Source: Escherichia coli (GTDB lineage: Bacteria; Pseudomonadota; Gammaproteobacteria; Enterobacterales; Enterobacteriaceae). Taken from it: a DNA stretch of 64,000 nt. The DNA is taken from the NCBI RefSeq assembly GCF_003334815.1, contig NZ_QOWO01000003.1; one strand, written 5' to 3'. Below are positions 2,324 through 25,555 of this stretch, piece by piece. Each line of letters starts with the position of its first letter. Positions within the stretch are counted from its first letter, which is position 1. The notes beneath the pieces are model-generated. The model ran no database searches and had not been told where the DNA came from. It saw only the letters and a list, made by a program, of their open reading frames with translations. Both the position numbers and the translations under genes were made by a program.

Positions 2324-2737
<414 letters not shown>

Positions 2738-2743
2738 TTTCTG

Positions 2744-3290
<547 letters not shown>

Positions 3291-3319
3291 TCGGTCACGG
3301 TCCATTAATACGACTTTGA

Positions 3320-3781
<462 letters not shown>

Positions 3782-3801
3782 TTCGTTATTCAACGAGACG
3801 T

Positions 3802-20198: not shown

Positions 20199-22142
20199 TT
20201 ACTTACTCAAATCCACCTGATAAATCGCAAACCCGATATCATCGGTCGCGACTTTATTCATCGGATATTGCCCTTTCTCTTTAATAAACGCCGCGGCTTT
20301 ATCTGATGGAGAGGTTTCGAAACGGATATCCAGTTTCTTATCGCCAGCTATCGGTGCTAAACGCCAGTTGTTATCTGCCGCCGGGTGAATTTCCCCCGCA
20401 CGTTTCGACTCATCAGCAATCCACGCTGCCAGCACCGAGCGGTTCTCATCCGGTGAAGCAAAAGCGATATGGCTGTCGCCCGTACCGGCAAATTTGCCGC
20501 CGTAAGCGCGATAGTTATTGGTGGCAACCAGGAACATGGCGTTCGGATCAATCGGCTTGCCATTAAAGGTCAGGTTCTTAATCCTTTCCGCATTGGCATT
20601 AACCATCTGGCACTCGCCGTCATAACGGGCAGGCTGGGTAACATCAATCTGATAATTCACACCATCAATCACATCAAAGTTATAGGTGCGGAAACCATCC
20701 CAGTTGATGAGTGACTGTGGTTTCGTGTTGTCAGGATCAATCTGGTTAAACTGTCCGGCGGAGCACTCCAGCCACTCTTTCACCTCTTTACCGCTGGCTT
20801 TCACCACAATCAGCGTATTGGGGTAGAGATAAAGATCGGCGGCATTACGGAAGGTCAACTGGCCTTTTTCCACCTCCACATAGCTTGCCGGATCATTTTT
20901 GCGACCACCAACTTTAAACGGTGCAGCAGCTGAAAGCACCGGCAGTTTTGCCAGATCCGGATCGCCCTGAATGTAATGCTCGACATACGCTTTTTGCGCG
21001 TTGTTCACCACCTGCACGGTCGGATCGTCCTGCACCAGCGCCAGATAGCTATACATATTGTCGGCGGATTTACCGATTGGCTTGCTGACGAACTGGCGTG
21101 TGGCATCGTGATCGGCTTTGAGTGTTTCTACCAGCTTGCTGTCTTCCGCCGCGAGGGATTTTTTATTGGCGATGTCGTAAATCGGCCGTGCTTCCGCTTT
21201 CGCCTGCGTCACCTGCCATTTACCGCTGTTATTACTGAGTTGTAAGTCGACCACCCCAAGATGATCGCCCCACATGCCCGGCATTACCGCCGGAACACCA
21301 TTCAGCGTGCCTTTCGCGATATCAGCCCCTTCGATATCAGCAAAATCTTTACCTGGGAAAACGGCGTGAGCATGGCCAAACATAATGGCGTTAACGCCAG
21401 GAATTTCACTGAGGTAATAAACTGAGTTTTCCGCCATCACTTTATACGGATCGGCAGATAGCCCGGAATGCGCCAGAACGACAACGACATCGGCACCTTT
21501 CTCGCGCATTTCAGGCACGTATTTGCGCACGGTTTCGGTAATATCATTCACCGTCACTTTTCCGGATAAATTAGCTTTATCCCAGCCCATGATTTGCGGC
21601 GGCACGACGCCAATATAGCCAATCTTCAGCGTCTGTTTTTTTCCGTCTTTATCGACCACTTCGGTATCTTTAATTAAATACGGTGTAAACATTGGCTGTT
21701 TGGTTCTGGCGTCAATGACGTTGGCATTTACATAAGGGAATTTCGCTCCCGCCAACGCATTTTTCAGGTAATCCAGACCGTAGTTAAATTCATGATTGCC
21801 GAGTGTACCGACCGTATAATCCAGCGTATTCAGCGCCTTATAAACCGGATGAACATCACCTGCTTTTAATCCTTTCGCCGATATGTAATCGGCCAGCGGA
21901 CTCCCCTGAATCAAATCGCCGTTATCGACCAGTACGCTGTTTTTCACTTCATTGCGGGCATCGTTAATCAGGCTTGCCGTACGTACCAGTCCGAATTTTT
22001 CCGTGGCGGTGTCTTTGTAATAATCGAAATCCATCATGTTGCTATGCAGATCAGTGGTTTCCATGATACGTAGATCGACCGTCGCTGCATTCACACTGGC
22101 GGCAATCAGCGTGGCCAGGAGCGTTGCGCTAAACTTAATCAT
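20199..22142 (-). CDS. cpdB: periplasmic 2',3'-cyclic-nucleotide 2'-phosphodiesterase/3'-nucleotidase CpdB
   Basis: Translation [44 protein letters not shown]... recognised as CpdB (signal peptide plus metallophosphatase domain); start set at the ATG 8 nt downstream of an AAGGA RBS (the ORF track starts 3 codons earlier). Confidence 0.93.
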
Positions 22143-22331
22143 CAGGGACATCCTTTTATCATCGGGAATACGAAAGAAAAGGGAGAATAAACGCCTTACT
22201 TATAGAACAGTGAAGAATGCCACAATTTTACGCTTTGAAAATGATGACACTAACACAGTTGGCGCATTCATTAACGATAGGGTATAAGTAAAACAATAAG
22301 TTAACACCGCTCACAGAGACGAGGTGGAGAA

Positions 22332-23072
22332 ATGTTAGATCAAGTATGCCAGCTTGCACGGAATGCAGGCGATGCCATTATGCAGGTCTACGACGGGACG
22401 AAACCGATGGACGTCGTCAGCAAAGCGGACAATTCTCCGGTAACGGCAGCGGATATTGCCGCTCACACCGTTATCATGGACGGTTTACGTACGCTGACAC
22501 CGGATATTCCGGTCCTTTCTGAAGAAGATCCTCCCGGTTGGGAAGTCCGTCAGCACTGGCAGCGTTACTGGCTGGTAGACCCGCTGGATGGTACTAAAGA
22601 GTTTATTAAACTTAATGGCGAATTCACCGTTAACATTGCGCTCATTGACCATGGCAAACCGATTTTAGGTGTGGTGTATGCGCCGGTAATGAACATAATG
22701 TACAGCGCGGCAGAAGGCAAGGCCTGGAAAGAAGAGTGCGGTGTGCGCAAGCAGATTCAGGTCCGCGATGCGCGCCCGCCGCTGGTGGTTATCAGCCGTT
22801 CCCATGCAGATGCGGAGCTGAAAGAGTATCTGCAACAGCTTGGCGAACATCAGACCACGTCCATCGGCTCTTCGCTGAAATTCTGCCTGGTGGCGGAAGG
22901 GCAGGCGCAGCTGTACCCGCGCTTCGGACCAACGAATATTTGGGATACCGCCGCTGGTCATGCTGTGGCTGCAGCTGCCGGAGCGCACGTTCATGACTGG
23001 CAGGGTAAACCGCTGGATTACACTCCGCGCGAGTCGTTCCTGAATCCGGGATTCAGAGTGTCTATTTATTAA
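22332..23072 (+). CDS. cysQ: 3'(2'),5'-bisphosphate nucleotidase CysQ
   Basis: 246-aa [48 protein letters not shown]...[12 protein letters not shown] (inositol-monophosphatase-family motifs). Confidence 0.95.
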
Positions 23073-23619
23073 TTAATTTATGCAGCAGGTCCATCACTTG
23101 CTGCACCTCTTCCTGTGTGAGCGCCCCGTCTTTGGCCCATTGCACGCGACCATCCTTATCCAGCACCACTACAGCGGAACTTTCTTCATCCAGCTGCCAG
23201 GCACCGCGCGCGACGCCATTGCTATCGACAATAAACTGCGACCAGGGATAAAGCTTTTTATTACTCTCCAGACTGCTGCGCACAAACATCCCTGAACCCG
23301 GAATCGCGTCGTCGGTGTTAACAATGGTGGTGGTCTGGTAGCGATCGTGCGGTAACTTCGCTGATTTAATCGCTTCAATCAGCGTCGCGTTTTTCTCTTT
23401 TGCAGAGGTGCGACCAGCAATATGTTGCAGTACTCGCACTTTTCCCACTAACTGTGCGCTGTTCCAGGTTTTGTAGCTAAACTGATCTTTATCAAGCACC
23501 AACTCGCCTCGATCGGTAATGCCAATCGGCGGCACTCGCTGACCGGTTTCGAACTGATGTGCGGAAGCCATCATCGGCAACAGCAGGCAGGTGAGTGCCA
23601 GAATCTTGCGTAGGGTCAT
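23062..23619 (-). CDS. ytfJ: periplasmic protein YtfJ (DUF1107-type)
   Basis: 185-aa ORF with signal peptide [31 protein letters not shown]...; convergent with cysQ and overlapping its 3' end by 11 nt. Confidence 0.85.
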
Positions 23620-23943
23620 GGTGTTTCCTTCTTATGATATGCAGGTGATCCGACCACTTGGGTCTGAGTTTTAATCATATGTGCTATTTATCGAATTTCC
23701 CGCAAGTGTGATGCCAGTTTGCGGTCAAGCGCACAAATCATATGAAAAATGAATGCTTATACTGAAGACCGCGCTTCGGTAAAAAGATAATTCTGAATAA
23801 TTGTAACCTTTAGGTAAAAAAAGTTATACGCGGTGGAAACATTGCCCGGATAGTCTATAGTCACTAAGCATTAAAATTTGCGCCTCATAATAGTTGGGCC
23901 GATTGTGGCACCGCACAGGCGTAATACTCAGCAGGAGATAACA

Positions 23944-24150
23944 ATGAAAATTTTCCAACGGTACAACCCACTTCAGGTGGCGAAGTACGTAAAGATCCTG
24001 TTCCGTGGACGGTTATACATCAAGGACGTTGGCGCTTTTGAATTTGATAAGGGTAAGATTCTTATCCCAAAAGTGAAGGATAAGCTGCATTTGTCAGTGA
24101 TGTCCGAAGTTAACCGTCAGGTTATGCGTCTGCAAACAGAGATGGCTTAA
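23944..24150 (+). CDS. ytfK: small DUF1107 protein YtfK
   Basis: Internal ATG with AGGAGA RBS gives [68 protein letters not shown] (68 aa), recognised as YtfK. Confidence 0.85.
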
Positions 24151-24211
24151 CCAAAGTGCTATGCAGTAATAAGACGGCTCCTGATTCAGGAGCCGTTGAT
24201 GTTTCTGGGGG

Positions 24212-25555
24212 TTACGCGACGCTTTCTTCTTTATCTTTAGCGTCAGGCAGTTTTGGCGAAAGGGCGGTGGCCTTGCTGTCGATCCGGGTCACCAGCAGCT
24301 GGTCGATGCGGTAGTTATCGATATCCACCACTTCAAATTTGTAGCCGGCGAATTTCACCGAATCGGTGCGTTTCGGGATCTTACGCAGCATAAACATCAT
24401 AAAGCCGCCGATGGTTTCGTAGTTGCCCGACTGCGGGAACTCGTCAATATCCAGCACGCGCATGACGTCGTCAATTGGGGTGCCGCCGTCAATCAGCCAT
24501 GAGTTCTCATCACGGGCGACAATCTGCTCTTCCAGCCCCTGACCGACTAGATCGCCCATCAGCGTGGTCATCACGTCATTGAGGGTGATGATCCCCACCA
24601 CCAGCGCGTACTCGTTCATGATCACCGCGAAGTCTTCACCTGCGGTTTTAAAACTTTCCAACGCCTCTGAAAGGGTTAACGTATCCGGCACAATCAGCGT
24701 GTTGCGAATTTGTACGCCGCTGTTCAGTGCCAGGCTTTGGTTAGCCAGCACGCGGTTCAGCAGGTCTTTAGAATCGACATAGCCGATGATGTGGTCAATA
24801 TCTTCATTACAGACGAGGAACTTAGAGTGCGGATGTTCCGCCACCTTATTCTTCAGGCTTTGCTCATCTTCGTGGAGATCAAACCAAATCACGTTTTCAC
24901 GCGGTGTCATTGACGACGGAACGGTACGGGATTCCAGCTCAAAGACGTTTTCAATCAGCTCGTGTTCCTGTTTACGTAACACGCCCGCCAGCGCACCGGC
25001 TTCCACTACCGCGTAGATGTCATCAGAAGTGATGTCATCTTTACGTACCATTGGCAGTTTGAAAATACGGAAGATTATGTTCGCCAGTCCGTTGAAGAAC
25101 CACACCAGCGGGGTGCAAACGTACAGGCAGAAGCGCATCGGGTTGATGATACGCAAAGCGACAGCTTCTGGCGCAATCATACCGATGCGTTTCGGGGTTA
25201 AATCCGCAAACAGGATAAACATGCCAGTCACTAACGAGAAAGAGAGAATAAAGCTCAGTTGCTCAGAGAGCTCTGCCGACATATAGCGGGAGAACAGGCT
25301 GTGAAAAGCTGGAGAAAATGCCGCATCACCGACGATACCGCCGAGAATCGCCACTGCGTTCAGACCGATTTGGACCACGGTAAAGAACATGCCGGGATTT
25401 TCCTGCATATTCAGAACGCGTTGGGCATTTATATTGCCTTCATCAGCCAGCAGTTTAAGTTTGATTTTGCGTGAGGCGGCAAGTGAGATCTCGGACATCG
25501 AGAAGAACGCACTTACAGCGATCAAGCAGAGTATGACTAAAATACTGTTTAACAT
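24212..25555 (-). CDS. ytfL: UPF0053 inner-membrane protein YtfL (DUF21 + CBS pair + CorC_HlyC domains)
   Basis: 447-aa ORF MLNSILVILCLIAVSAFFSMSEISLAASRKIKLKLLADEGNINAQRVL... recognised as YtfL. Confidence 0.9.
   Translation of the reverse strand: MLNSILVILCLIAVSAFFSMSEISLAASRKIKLKLLADEGNINAQRVLNMQENPGMFFTVVQIGLNAVAILGGIVGDAAFSPAFHSLFSRYMSAELSEQLSFILSFSLVTGMFILFADLTPKRIGMIAPEAVALRIINPMRFCLYVCTPLVWFFNGLANIIFRIFKLPMVRKDDITSDDIYAVVEAGALAGVLRKQEHELIENVFELESRTVPSSMTPRENVIWFDLHEDEQSLKNKVAEHPHSKFLVCNEDIDHIIGYVDSKDLLNRVLANQSLALNSGVQIRNTLIVPDTLTLSEALESFKTAGEDFAVIMNEYALVVGIITLNDVMTTLMGDLVGQGLEEQIVARDENSWLIDGGTPIDDVMRVLDIDEFPQSGNYETIGGFMMFMLRKIPKRTDSVKFAGYKFEVVDIDNYRIDQLLVTRIDSKATALSPKLPDAKDKEESVA

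What the first reader, a model, noticed from the sequence alone, without database searches (positions are those of the whole stretch)
23062..23072. cysQ and ytfJ overlap tail-to-tail; ytfI is absent
cysQ (+) ends at 23072 and the convergent ytfJ (-) ends at 23062, an 11-bp overlap of 3' ends. I recall an extra gene (ytfI) between them in K-12, which is missing here. Overlapping convergent genes mean the transcripts must terminate inside each other's coding sequence, so some mutual antisense interference is possible.
Basis: partly seen in the sequence, partly recalled or inferred. Interest (0 to 1): 0.25.

Follow-up and report, generated by a model that had tools for sequence, protein, structure and literature searches.

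The report
Ordinary ancestral cysQ–ytfJ tail overlap
The 11-base tail-to-tail overlap of cysQ and ytfJ is real, but it is the normal, ancient arrangement in E. coli and its relatives; ytfI is a foreign gene that K-12 and about 30% of E. coli strains gained at this spot, so its absence here is ordinary.

Summary
cysQ (+, 22332-23072) and ytfJ (-, 23062-23619) share 11 bp, and there is no ytfI anywhere in the window.

The arrangement is not unusual:
- RefSeq annotates the same overlap in an identical strain.
- About 70% of 5,413 complete E. coli genomes carry this contiguous junction.
- 74 of 80 Enterobacteriaceae species representatives show a tail-to-tail overlap of 11, 7 or 4 bp.

K-12's ytfI lies on a 1,222-bp segment of 35% GC that has replaced 2 bp just after the cysQ stop. 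It encodes an orphan protein and occurs in about 30% of E. coli genomes. It has already been published as a strain-specific, H-NS-bound insertion. So ytfI is absent here most likely because it was never gained, not because it was lost.

Convergent overlaps are common; 75 are reported in E. coli.

The idea that each transcript ends inside the other gene is plausible but untested. A GC-rich hairpin (23081-23105) lies inside ytfJ, 8 nt past the cysQ stop. It is nearly invariant across genera and covers the most codon-conserved stretch of either gene, which makes it a candidate cysQ terminator. ytfJ has no canonical terminator.

Verdict: already known, low interest.

The parts
22332..23072 (+). 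cysQ CDS (3'(2'),5'-bisphosphate nucleotidase, 246 aa), stop TAA at 23070-23072
   Evidence: ORF list. NCBIfam NF008182 scores 521.6 bits against a cutoff of 379. PGAP annotation of an identical strain agrees. 99% identical to K-12 CysQ.
23062..23619 (-). ytfJ CDS (YtfJ family periplasmic protein, 185 aa, ends ...HKLINK*), stop TAG = CTA at 23062-23064
   Evidence: ORF list. TIGR01626 scores 306.8 bits against a cutoff of 151.1, with profile positions 1-183 of 184 matched by residues 1-183 of the 185-aa protein. PGAP annotation agrees. Orthologues in 70 species have the same length, 558 bp.
23062..23072 (.). 11-bp convergent overlap CTATTTATTAA. It encodes the last cysQ codons (S-I-Y-stop) and the last ytfJ codons (I)-N-K-stop.
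   Evidence: Read directly from the sequence. An 11-bp overlap is found in 40 of 80 species representatives, 7 bp in 28 and 4 bp in 6.
23073..23074 (.). Position where K-12-type strains carry the 1,222-bp ytfI segment. Homology to K-12 breaks between 23072 and 23075.
   Evidence: blastn of the window against K-12: window 20000-23072 matches L001 418-3496, and 23075-26000 matches L001 4719-7661. The split of the junction query at positions 173 and 178 in ytfI-carrying genomes agrees.
23040..23056 (+). HP1: hairpin CTGAATC-CGG-GATTCAG inside cysQ codons 237-242, followed by T-rich sequence. It is a terminator-like site on the cysQ strand. This form is specific to Escherichia.
   Evidence: Terminator scan hit. 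About -7 kcal/mol. Only 64% of cells pair across genera. No excess synonymous-site conservation, p=0.42. 7-10% of synonymous resamplings are at least as stable.
23057..23080 (.). A/T-rich tract between the two hairpins; it includes the overlap. It carries four G/C-to-A/T changes relative to other Escherichia clades and Citrobacter (GAGCAAC to AATTAAT).
   Evidence: Junction alignments.
23081..23105 (.). HP2: 10-bp stem TGCAGCAGGT / ACTTGCTGCA with a 5-nt loop, inside ytfJ codons 172-180 and starting 8 nt after the cysQ stop. Candidate cysQ terminator or 3'-end stabiliser.
   Evidence: -14.6 kcal/mol on the + strand and -14.0 on the - strand; family consensus about -20. It is the only helix in the RNAalifold consensus of 74 species. 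94.5% of cells pair, with one GC/AU/GU compensatory pair. 5 of 6 stem codons have at least 0.9 codon conservation against 17 of 121 in the gene, p=1.7e-4, post hoc. It is the top-ranked of 305 sliding 9-codon windows.

Best explanation
The window carries the ancestral and majority arrangement of this locus. cysQ and ytfJ converge and share their last 11 bp, so each stop codon lies in the other gene's final codons.

Shown: this layout predates the split of Escherichia, Salmonella, Citrobacter, Klebsiella, Enterobacter and related genera. It has been kept, with small indels that shift the overlap between 11, 7 and 4 bp without changing YtfJ length. ytfI is not lost here. It is a 1.2-kb AT-rich orphan gene, silenced by H-NS in K-12, that was inserted just after the cysQ stop in one Escherichia lineage. 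It now segregates in about 30% of E. coli.

Inferred: there is no intergenic DNA, so 3'-end formation must use signals inside coding sequence. cysQ transcripts most likely stop at the weak HP1 plus T-tract (23040-23066), at the strong conserved hairpin HP2 (23081-23105) inside ytfJ, or at both. ytfJ has no hairpin with a U-tract. It probably reads some tens of bases or more into antisense cysQ, until Rho or an RNA polymerase collision stops it. The two mRNAs would then have short complementary 3' ends. This is the usual situation for tightly packed convergent genes, not a dedicated regulatory device.
For: Overlap and gene identity.

Population frequency: 3,795 of 5,413 complete E. coli genomes have the contiguous junction. 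1,623 of 5,426 have the K-12 segment.

Ancestry: 74 of 80 species-level representatives overlap by 11, 7 or 4 bp, and their junction sequences can be aligned.

Foreign origin of ytfI: GC is 0.35 against 0.52-0.55 in the flanks. There is no Pfam or NCBIfam family and no phage homologue. Alleles are 69-78% identical while flanking genes are 96-99% identical. It is published as a K-12-specific, H-NS-bound insertion absent from SE11 and SE15 (PMC4720273).

Commonness of the class: 75 convergent overlapping pairs in E. coli (PMC4161906).

Hairpins. In every lineage with an insertion, a new hairpin sits about 5-15 nt after the cysQ stop. In C. youngae a 42-nt copy of the ytfJ 3' end, including HP2, remains next to cysQ.
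Against: Direction within E. coli proper is not fully settled. K-12's ytfJ 3' end keeps the ancestral GAGCAAC, whereas ytfI-less E. coli has the derived AATTAAT. The two alleles are therefore old and did not arise simply one from the other.

The termination model has no transcript data behind it. HP2's tail on the cysQ strand (CCUCUUCCUG) fails the U-tract rule of the scan. In the window alone, 12-22% of synonymous recodings fold as stably as HP2, so much of the hairpin follows from the peptide VQQ...LLH and preferred codons. Its lead in the codon-conservation scan is small, 0.884 against 0.86 for another ytfJ region. The hypergeometric test was chosen after seeing the alignment.
Confidence: 0.85

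Rival explanations
1. The window's lineage once had ytfI and lost it by deletion. That deletion fused the 3' ends of cysQ and ytfJ and created the overlap secondarily.
For: ytfI alleles are deeply diverged, and one is present in a separate Escherichia species-level representative (L007), so the polymorphism is old. The ytfI-less E. coli junction carries four clustered substitutions relative to other clades, while K-12 keeps the ancestral ytfJ end. Deletions at this locus do occur (IS1 in ETEC1738).
Against: The overlap has the same length, the same frame and alignable sequence in Citrobacter, Salmonella, Klebsiella and Raoultella. A deletion would have to rebuild it to the base. Strain E69 (L008) shows an intermediate junction (AAGCAAT), which fits stepwise point changes. 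The one deletion observed is messy and truncates ytfJ. No significant direct repeats flank the K-12 insert that could drive a precise excision.
Confidence: 0.07
2. The overlap is a selected regulatory device. Complementary 3' ends of cysQ and ytfJ mRNAs, or RNA polymerase collisions, reciprocally tune the two genes, and that function is why the overlap is conserved.
For: The tail-to-tail overlap has been kept across many genera despite indels. HP2 is nearly invariant at synonymous sites. RNA polymerase collision at a stem-loop is a documented termination mode for convergent E. coli pairs (bioRxiv 10.1101/2022.10.23.513370).
Against: The overlap length is not conserved (11, 7 or 4 bp). At least five independent lineages separated the genes by 71-2,120 bp, and about 30% of E. 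coli live with them 1.2 kb apart. No functional link between CysQ and YtfJ is known. No paper in the searched library ties them together. Conservation is equally explained by the lack of any pressure to create a spacer.
Confidence: 0.07
3. The overlap is an annotation or sequencing artefact, such as a wrong ytfJ stop or a frameshift.
For: None found. K-12 YtfJ is one residue shorter (184 aa) and ends differently.
Against: The stop is the first in-frame stop. The sequence is identical in many independent complete genomes. 70 species share the 558-bp ytfJ length. The YtfJ family model is covered to its end.
Confidence: 0.01

Closest known systems
Short convergent (tail-to-tail) overlapping gene pairs of bacteria
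   Same: Two real genes on opposite strands share a few 3'-terminal bases that include both stop codons. The overlap is short, 11 bp. It is conserved among orthologous pairs, as reported for overlapping genes in general. 75 such pairs are reported in E. coli (PMC4161906).
   Different: Nothing material. The only detail is that the overlap length has shifted between 11, 7 and 4 bp through a 4-nt indel and stop changes, while YtfJ length stayed the same.
K-12 ytfI locus: strain-specific, H-NS-bound horizontally acquired insertion (Higashi et al. 2016, PLoS Genet, S10 Fig; PMC4720273)
   Same: Same chromosomal site, with cpdB-cysQ on one side and ytfJ-ytfK on the other. The window matches the published ytfI-less state of strains SE11 and SE15.
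   Different: The window lacks the 1,222-bp segment. In K-12 each flanking gene is followed by a hairpin carried on the insert, instead of relying on sequence inside its neighbour.
Bidirectional termination of convergent gene pairs at a stem-loop, with RNA polymerase collision (Liu lab; bioRxiv 10.1101/2022.10.23.513370)
   Same: This is a convergent E. coli pair with stem-loops at the gene boundary and A/T-rich sequence beside them. HP2 is palindromic enough to fold on both strands.
   Different: Here the stem-loops lie inside coding sequence, not between the genes. There are two of them flanking the overlap. Neither has a good U-tract for ytfJ. No transcript ends have been mapped for this arrangement.
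The neighbouring convergent pair ytfK/paeA in the same window
   Same: A convergent pair in the same region of the same genome.
   Different: That pair has a 61-bp spacer (24151-24211) holding a canonical 10-bp GC-rich hairpin (24174-24196). This is the textbook layout that cysQ/ytfJ lacks.

Membership tests
Convergent overlapping gene pair | Two protein-coding genes on opposite strands whose 3' ends share nucleotides | tested here: met
   cysQ ends at 23072 and ytfJ ends at 23062, sharing 11 bp. PGAP gives the same result.
Convergent overlapping gene pair | Both ORFs are genuine genes, not spurious ORFs | tested here: met
   NF008182 scores 521.6 bits against a cutoff of 379. TIGR01626 scores 306.8 against 151.1. 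Orthologues are found in 80 species representatives.
Convergent overlapping gene pair | The overlap is found in orthologous pairs of other genomes, so it is not strain-specific noise | tested here: met
   74 of 80 representatives overlap: 40 by 11 bp, 28 by 7 bp and 6 by 4 bp.
K-12-type ytfI insertion allele | Presence of the roughly 1.2-kb AT-rich segment encoding YtfI between cysQ and ytfJ | tested here: not met
   Homology to K-12 is continuous except that L001:3497-4718 is replaced by 2 bp. There is no ytfI-like DNA or protein anywhere in the window.
Intrinsic (Rho-independent) terminator, for HP2 acting on cysQ | Stable GC-rich stem-loop shortly after the stop codon | tested here: met
   10-bp stem, -14.6 kcal/mol, 8 nt after the cysQ stop. 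Conserved in 74 species.
Intrinsic (Rho-independent) terminator, for HP2 acting on cysQ | U-rich tract directly after the stem | tested here: not met
   The tail is CCUCUUCCUG. The consensus scan, which requires at least 5 T in 8, reports HP1 but not HP2.
Intrinsic (Rho-independent) terminator, for HP2 acting on cysQ | Mapped RNA 3' ends or read-through assay | not testable with these tools
   No transcript data are available. Published E. coli 3'-end maps that I know of use K-12, which has ytfI.
Bidirectional terminator of a convergent pair | One stem-loop between the gene boundaries, flanked by an A-tract and a U-tract so that it works on both strands | tested here: inconclusive
   Two hairpins lie inside the coding sequences around an A/T-rich tract. 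There is no scan hit on the ytfJ strand. The collision mechanism is described in bioRxiv 10.1101/2022.10.23.513370.
Known RNA families (Rfam) at the junction | Match to a curated covariance model | tested here: not met
   There is no match at 22300-24300. The only hit in 21800-24300 is ES239, upstream of cysQ.

The most novel reading that the evidence does not exclude
HP2 (23081-23105) is the real cysQ terminator or 3' stabiliser, embedded in the last 40 nt of ytfJ. Purifying selection on ytfJ's synonymous sites has held it nearly invariant across Enterobacteriaceae. cysQ and ytfJ mRNAs would then share a complementary 3' end of roughly 45-80 nt, which couples their stability. Insertions at this junction, such as ytfI in K-12, survive only if they supply a replacement hairpin. 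That requirement would explain why this stop-to-stop junction repeatedly receives small foreign cargo that arrives with its own terminators.
Probability: 0.15. Interest if true: 0.3.

Novelty: already known. Interest (0 to 1): 0.1.

Why it matters
It matters very little beyond correct bookkeeping. K-12 is the odd one out at this locus, not the window, so K-12 should not be taken as the default gene order.

The modest points of interest are three:
- This is a clean example of a convergent overlap kept across a whole bacterial family.
- A coding-sequence hairpin in ytfJ may double as the neighbour's terminator.
- The junction has taken up unrelated small cargo several times.

None of these changes current understanding.

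Tried and rejected
1. Target-site duplication around the K-12 ytfI segment. By eye the cysQ end seemed to be repeated at the right junction. Local alignment against shuffled controls gave p=0.19-0.96 for K-12, L003 and L007, so I rejected it. Only C. youngae L045 has a real 42-nt duplication.

2. HP1 as a conserved terminator. The E. coli form pairs in only 64% of cells across genera. It shows no excess synonymous conservation (p=0.42). Many species with the Arg codon CGC break the alternative CCCGG/CCGGG stem.

3. Hairpin stability against synonymous recoding in the window alone. The result was not exceptional: 12-22% of recodings match HP2 and 7-10% match HP1. Single-genome folding energy is therefore not evidence.

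4. Rfam scan of 21800-24300. Nothing was found at the junction.

5. Function of YtfI. There is no Pfam or NCBIfam match, and only a 17-bit PADLOC Cas6b fragment that I regard as spurious. There are no phage hits. The 'plasmid' hits are chromosome-sized E. coli records. I did not run the large protein-database searches or structure prediction, because ytfI is not in the window and the verdict does not depend on it.

6. Literature linking cysQ and ytfJ. Five papers mention both genes, and none concerns the overlap.

Full report
**Observation**

The ORF list and the raw sequence confirm the finding to the base.
- cysQ runs on the + strand from 22332 to 23072 and ends ...GTG TCT ATT TAT TAA.
- ytfJ runs on the - strand from 23619 down to 23062 and ends ...AAA TTA ATT AAT AAA TAG.
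- The shared bases are CTATTTATTAA (23062-23072), 11 bp.

Both are bona fide genes. CysQ matches NF008182 at 521.6 bits (cutoff 379). YtfJ matches TIGR01626 at 306.8 bits (cutoff 151.1), with the profile covered to its end. RefSeq's PGAP annotates exactly the same 11-bp overlap in strain 720632, which is 100% identical over the 331-nt junction query. The ytfJ stop is the first in-frame stop, so no re-annotation can remove the overlap.

**Comparison with K-12**

In MG1655 the order is cysQ (b4214), ytfI (b4215) and ytfJ (b4216), with 1,212 bp between the two stop codons. The window aligns to K-12 continuously on both sides. Window 23072 corresponds to the last base of the K-12 cysQ stop, and window 23075 to a position inside the last codons of K-12 ytfJ. 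K-12 therefore has 1,222 bp (L001:3497-4718) where the window has 2 bp. K-12 YtfJ ends QKLLK* and the window protein ends HKLINK*. No ytfI-like DNA or protein exists elsewhere in the window.

**How common each state is in E. coli**

A 331-nt query across the junction found 5,413 of 5,426 complete genomes. In 3,795 of them the junction is contiguous, as in the window. In the rest it splits exactly at the cysQ stop. The K-12 segment itself is present in 1,623 genomes, among them K-12 derivatives and O157:H7/O55:H7. The ytfI-less state is therefore the majority allele at about 70%. Four sampled ytfI-less strains from different backgrounds have the same junction sequence and the same annotated overlap.

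**Which state is ancestral**

I scanned one genome per GTDB species for YtfJ and kept the 80 best loci. All are Enterobacteriaceae. In each I located both stop codons.
- 74 of 80 show a tail-to-tail overlap: 40 of 11 bp, 28 of 7 bp and 6 of 4 bp.
- The genera include Escherichia clades, Citrobacter, Salmonella, Klebsiella, Raoultella, Kosakonia, Enterobacter, Lelliottia, Leclercia, Pluralibacter, Trabulsiella, Yokenella and Kluyvera.
- The junctions can be aligned. The 7-bp class differs from the 11-bp class by a 4-nt indel that changes which triplet serves as the ytfJ stop, while YtfJ stays 185 aa.

The overlap is therefore ancestral to the family. The six exceptions are separate insertions at the same point:
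- ytfI-type segments in an Escherichia representative (L007).
- A 1.5-kb AT-rich segment encoding a pentapeptide-repeat protein in E. albertii (L009).
- A 2.1-kb radical-SAM/SPASM plus TIGR04222 cassette in Citrobacter youngae (L045).
- A 0.9-kb DD-carboxypeptidase-like gene in two Kluyvera (L062, L063).
- A 71-bp spacer in K. intermedia (L070).

**Nature of ytfI**

The K-12 segment has 35% GC against 52-55% in cysQ and ytfJ. YtfI has no Pfam or NCBIfam family, only a 17-bit PADLOC fragment and no phage homologue. Its alleles are 69-78% identical in protein, while the flanking genes are 96-99% identical. Higashi et al. 2016 already use this locus as their example of a strain-specific inserted sequence: ytfI in K-12, bound by H-NS and absent from SE11 and SE15 (PMC4720273, S10 Fig). 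The 'absence' in the window is thus the published, ordinary state.

**A caveat on direction within E. coli**

The ytfJ 3' end next to ytfI in K-12 keeps the ancestral GAGCAAC, which is also seen in E. whittamii and Citrobacter. ytfI-less E. coli has AATTAAT, and strain E69 has the intermediate AAGCAAT. The two alleles are therefore old and did not derive simply from one another. Most likely ytfI entered a lineage with the ancestral junction and spread by homologous recombination.

A secondary precise deletion in the window's lineage cannot be fully excluded, but it would have to regenerate the family-wide overlap to the base. The one deletion I saw (IS1 in ETEC1738) destroys the ytfJ 3' end. 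I looked for flanking direct repeats that could mediate insertion or excision and found none above chance. I give loss about 7%.

**How transcripts might end**

Two hairpins flank the overlap.

HP1 (23040-23056, CTGAATC-CGG-GATTCAG) lies in cysQ and is followed by T-rich sequence. It is the only terminator-like hit of the consensus scan at the junction.
- It is weak, about -7 kcal/mol.
- Its E. coli form pairs in only 64% of cells across genera.
- Its codons show no excess conservation (p=0.42).

HP2 (23081-23105) lies in ytfJ codons 172-180 (VQQ...LLH) and starts 8 nt after the cysQ stop.
- Its energy is -14.6 kcal/mol in the window and about -20 for the family consensus.
- It is the only helix RNAalifold predicts for 74 species.
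- It pairs in 94.5% of cells, with one GC/GU/AU compensatory pair.
- 5 of its 6 stem codons use one codon in at least 91% of species, against 17 of 121 comparable codons in the gene (p=1.7e-4, chosen post hoc).
- In an unbiased scan of 305 nine-codon windows over both genes, the top window is ytfJ 171-179. Its lead is small, 0.884 against 0.86 for another ytfJ region.

Against over-reading HP2: 12-22% of synonymous recodings of the window sequence fold as stably. Its tail on the cysQ strand, CCUCUUCCUG, fails the U-tract criterion.

Suggestive but anecdotal: every lineage with an insertion has a fresh hairpin about 5-15 nt after the cysQ stop, and C. youngae retains a 42-nt copy of the ytfJ end, including HP2, next to cysQ.

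My reading is as follows. cysQ probably terminates at HP1, HP2 or both. ytfJ has no canonical intrinsic terminator and probably runs into antisense cysQ until Rho or a polymerase collision stops it. The two mRNAs would then have short complementary ends. This is inference; no transcript data exist for this arrangement.

**Comparison with what is known**

Short convergent overlaps are routine. Huvet and Stumpf count 75 convergent overlapping pairs in E. coli (PMC4161906). Termination of convergent E. coli pairs at a shared stem-loop, helped by RNA polymerase collision, is documented (bioRxiv 10.1101/2022.10.23.513370). The next convergent pair in the window, ytfK/paeA, shows the textbook alternative: a 61-bp spacer with a 10-bp GC-rich hairpin. 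No paper in the searched library discusses the cysQ-ytfJ overlap itself, and Rfam has nothing at the junction.

**Verdict**

The novelty class is already known and the interest is low, about 0.1. The most novel reading still open is that HP2 is a selected cysQ terminator embedded in ytfJ that couples the two mRNAs. I give that about 15%, and even if true it would be of modest interest.

Noticed in passing
window 22143-22265 (+): Full-length Rfam match to ES239 sRNA (RF02756; 148.8 bits against a gathering score of 62; E=4e-30). It lies in the cpdB-cysQ divergent region, overlaps the cpdB start and sits just upstream of cysQ.
   Followed up: no
L009:4556-6059, L045:4559-6678, L062:4556-5459, L063:4556-5460, L070:4556-4626 (sites equivalent to window 23073-23074): The exact cysQ/ytfJ stop-to-stop junction has received unrelated insertions in several lineages. 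E. albertii has an AT-rich 385-aa pentapeptide-repeat protein. C. youngae has a radical SAM/SPASM gene plus a TIGR04222 membrane protein with a Cys/Gly-rich tail. Kluyvera has a DD-carboxypeptidase-like gene. K. intermedia has a 71-bp hairpin spacer. No mobility genes were seen.
   Followed up: partly
L001:3708-4646, L003:4965-5888, L007 insert ORF: ytfI alleles are only 69-78% identical in protein between Escherichia strains whose flanking cysQ and ytfJ are 96-99% identical. The protein has no recognisable family. This fits the H-NS-associated diversification described in PMC4720273.
   Followed up: partly
L045, next to the cysQ stop and again at the ytfJ 3' end: In C. youngae ATCC 29220 a 42-nt copy of the ytfJ 3' end, including the HP2 hairpin, is duplicated on both sides of the 2.1-kb insert (40 of 42 identical; p about 0.002 against shuffles). 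The insertion therefore rebuilt the ytfJ end and left HP2 beside cysQ.
   Followed up: partly
window 23071-23077 compared with L004, L008 and L001: ytfI-less E. coli has AATTAAT where other Escherichia clades, Citrobacter and K-12's own ytfJ end have GAGCAAC. That is four G/C-to-A/T changes in 7 nt, with an intermediate in strain E69. The changes turn the cysQ stop from TGA into TAA and YtfJ Leu183 into Ile, and they make the tract between the hairpins more A/T-rich.
   Followed up: partly
L088 (E. coli ETEC1738), 2501-3794: An IS1 element has replaced most of ytfI and the 3' end of ytfJ, leaving ytfJ as a pseudogene. ytfJ is therefore dispensable in at least this strain. Another strain has IS1 inside ytfI (H68).
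   Followed up: no
window 24174-24196 (-): A canonical 10-bp, 7-GC hairpin lies in the short spacer between the convergent ytfK and paeA genes. It is a likely shared terminator and a useful contrast to the spacer-less cysQ/ytfJ pair.
   Followed up: no
ytfJ codons 45-56 (window about 23452-23487, - strand): This is a second stretch of unusually high synonymous-codon conservation across 70 species (0.85-0.86), almost equal to that of HP2. I did not examine it for structure or other overlapping signals.
   Followed up: no
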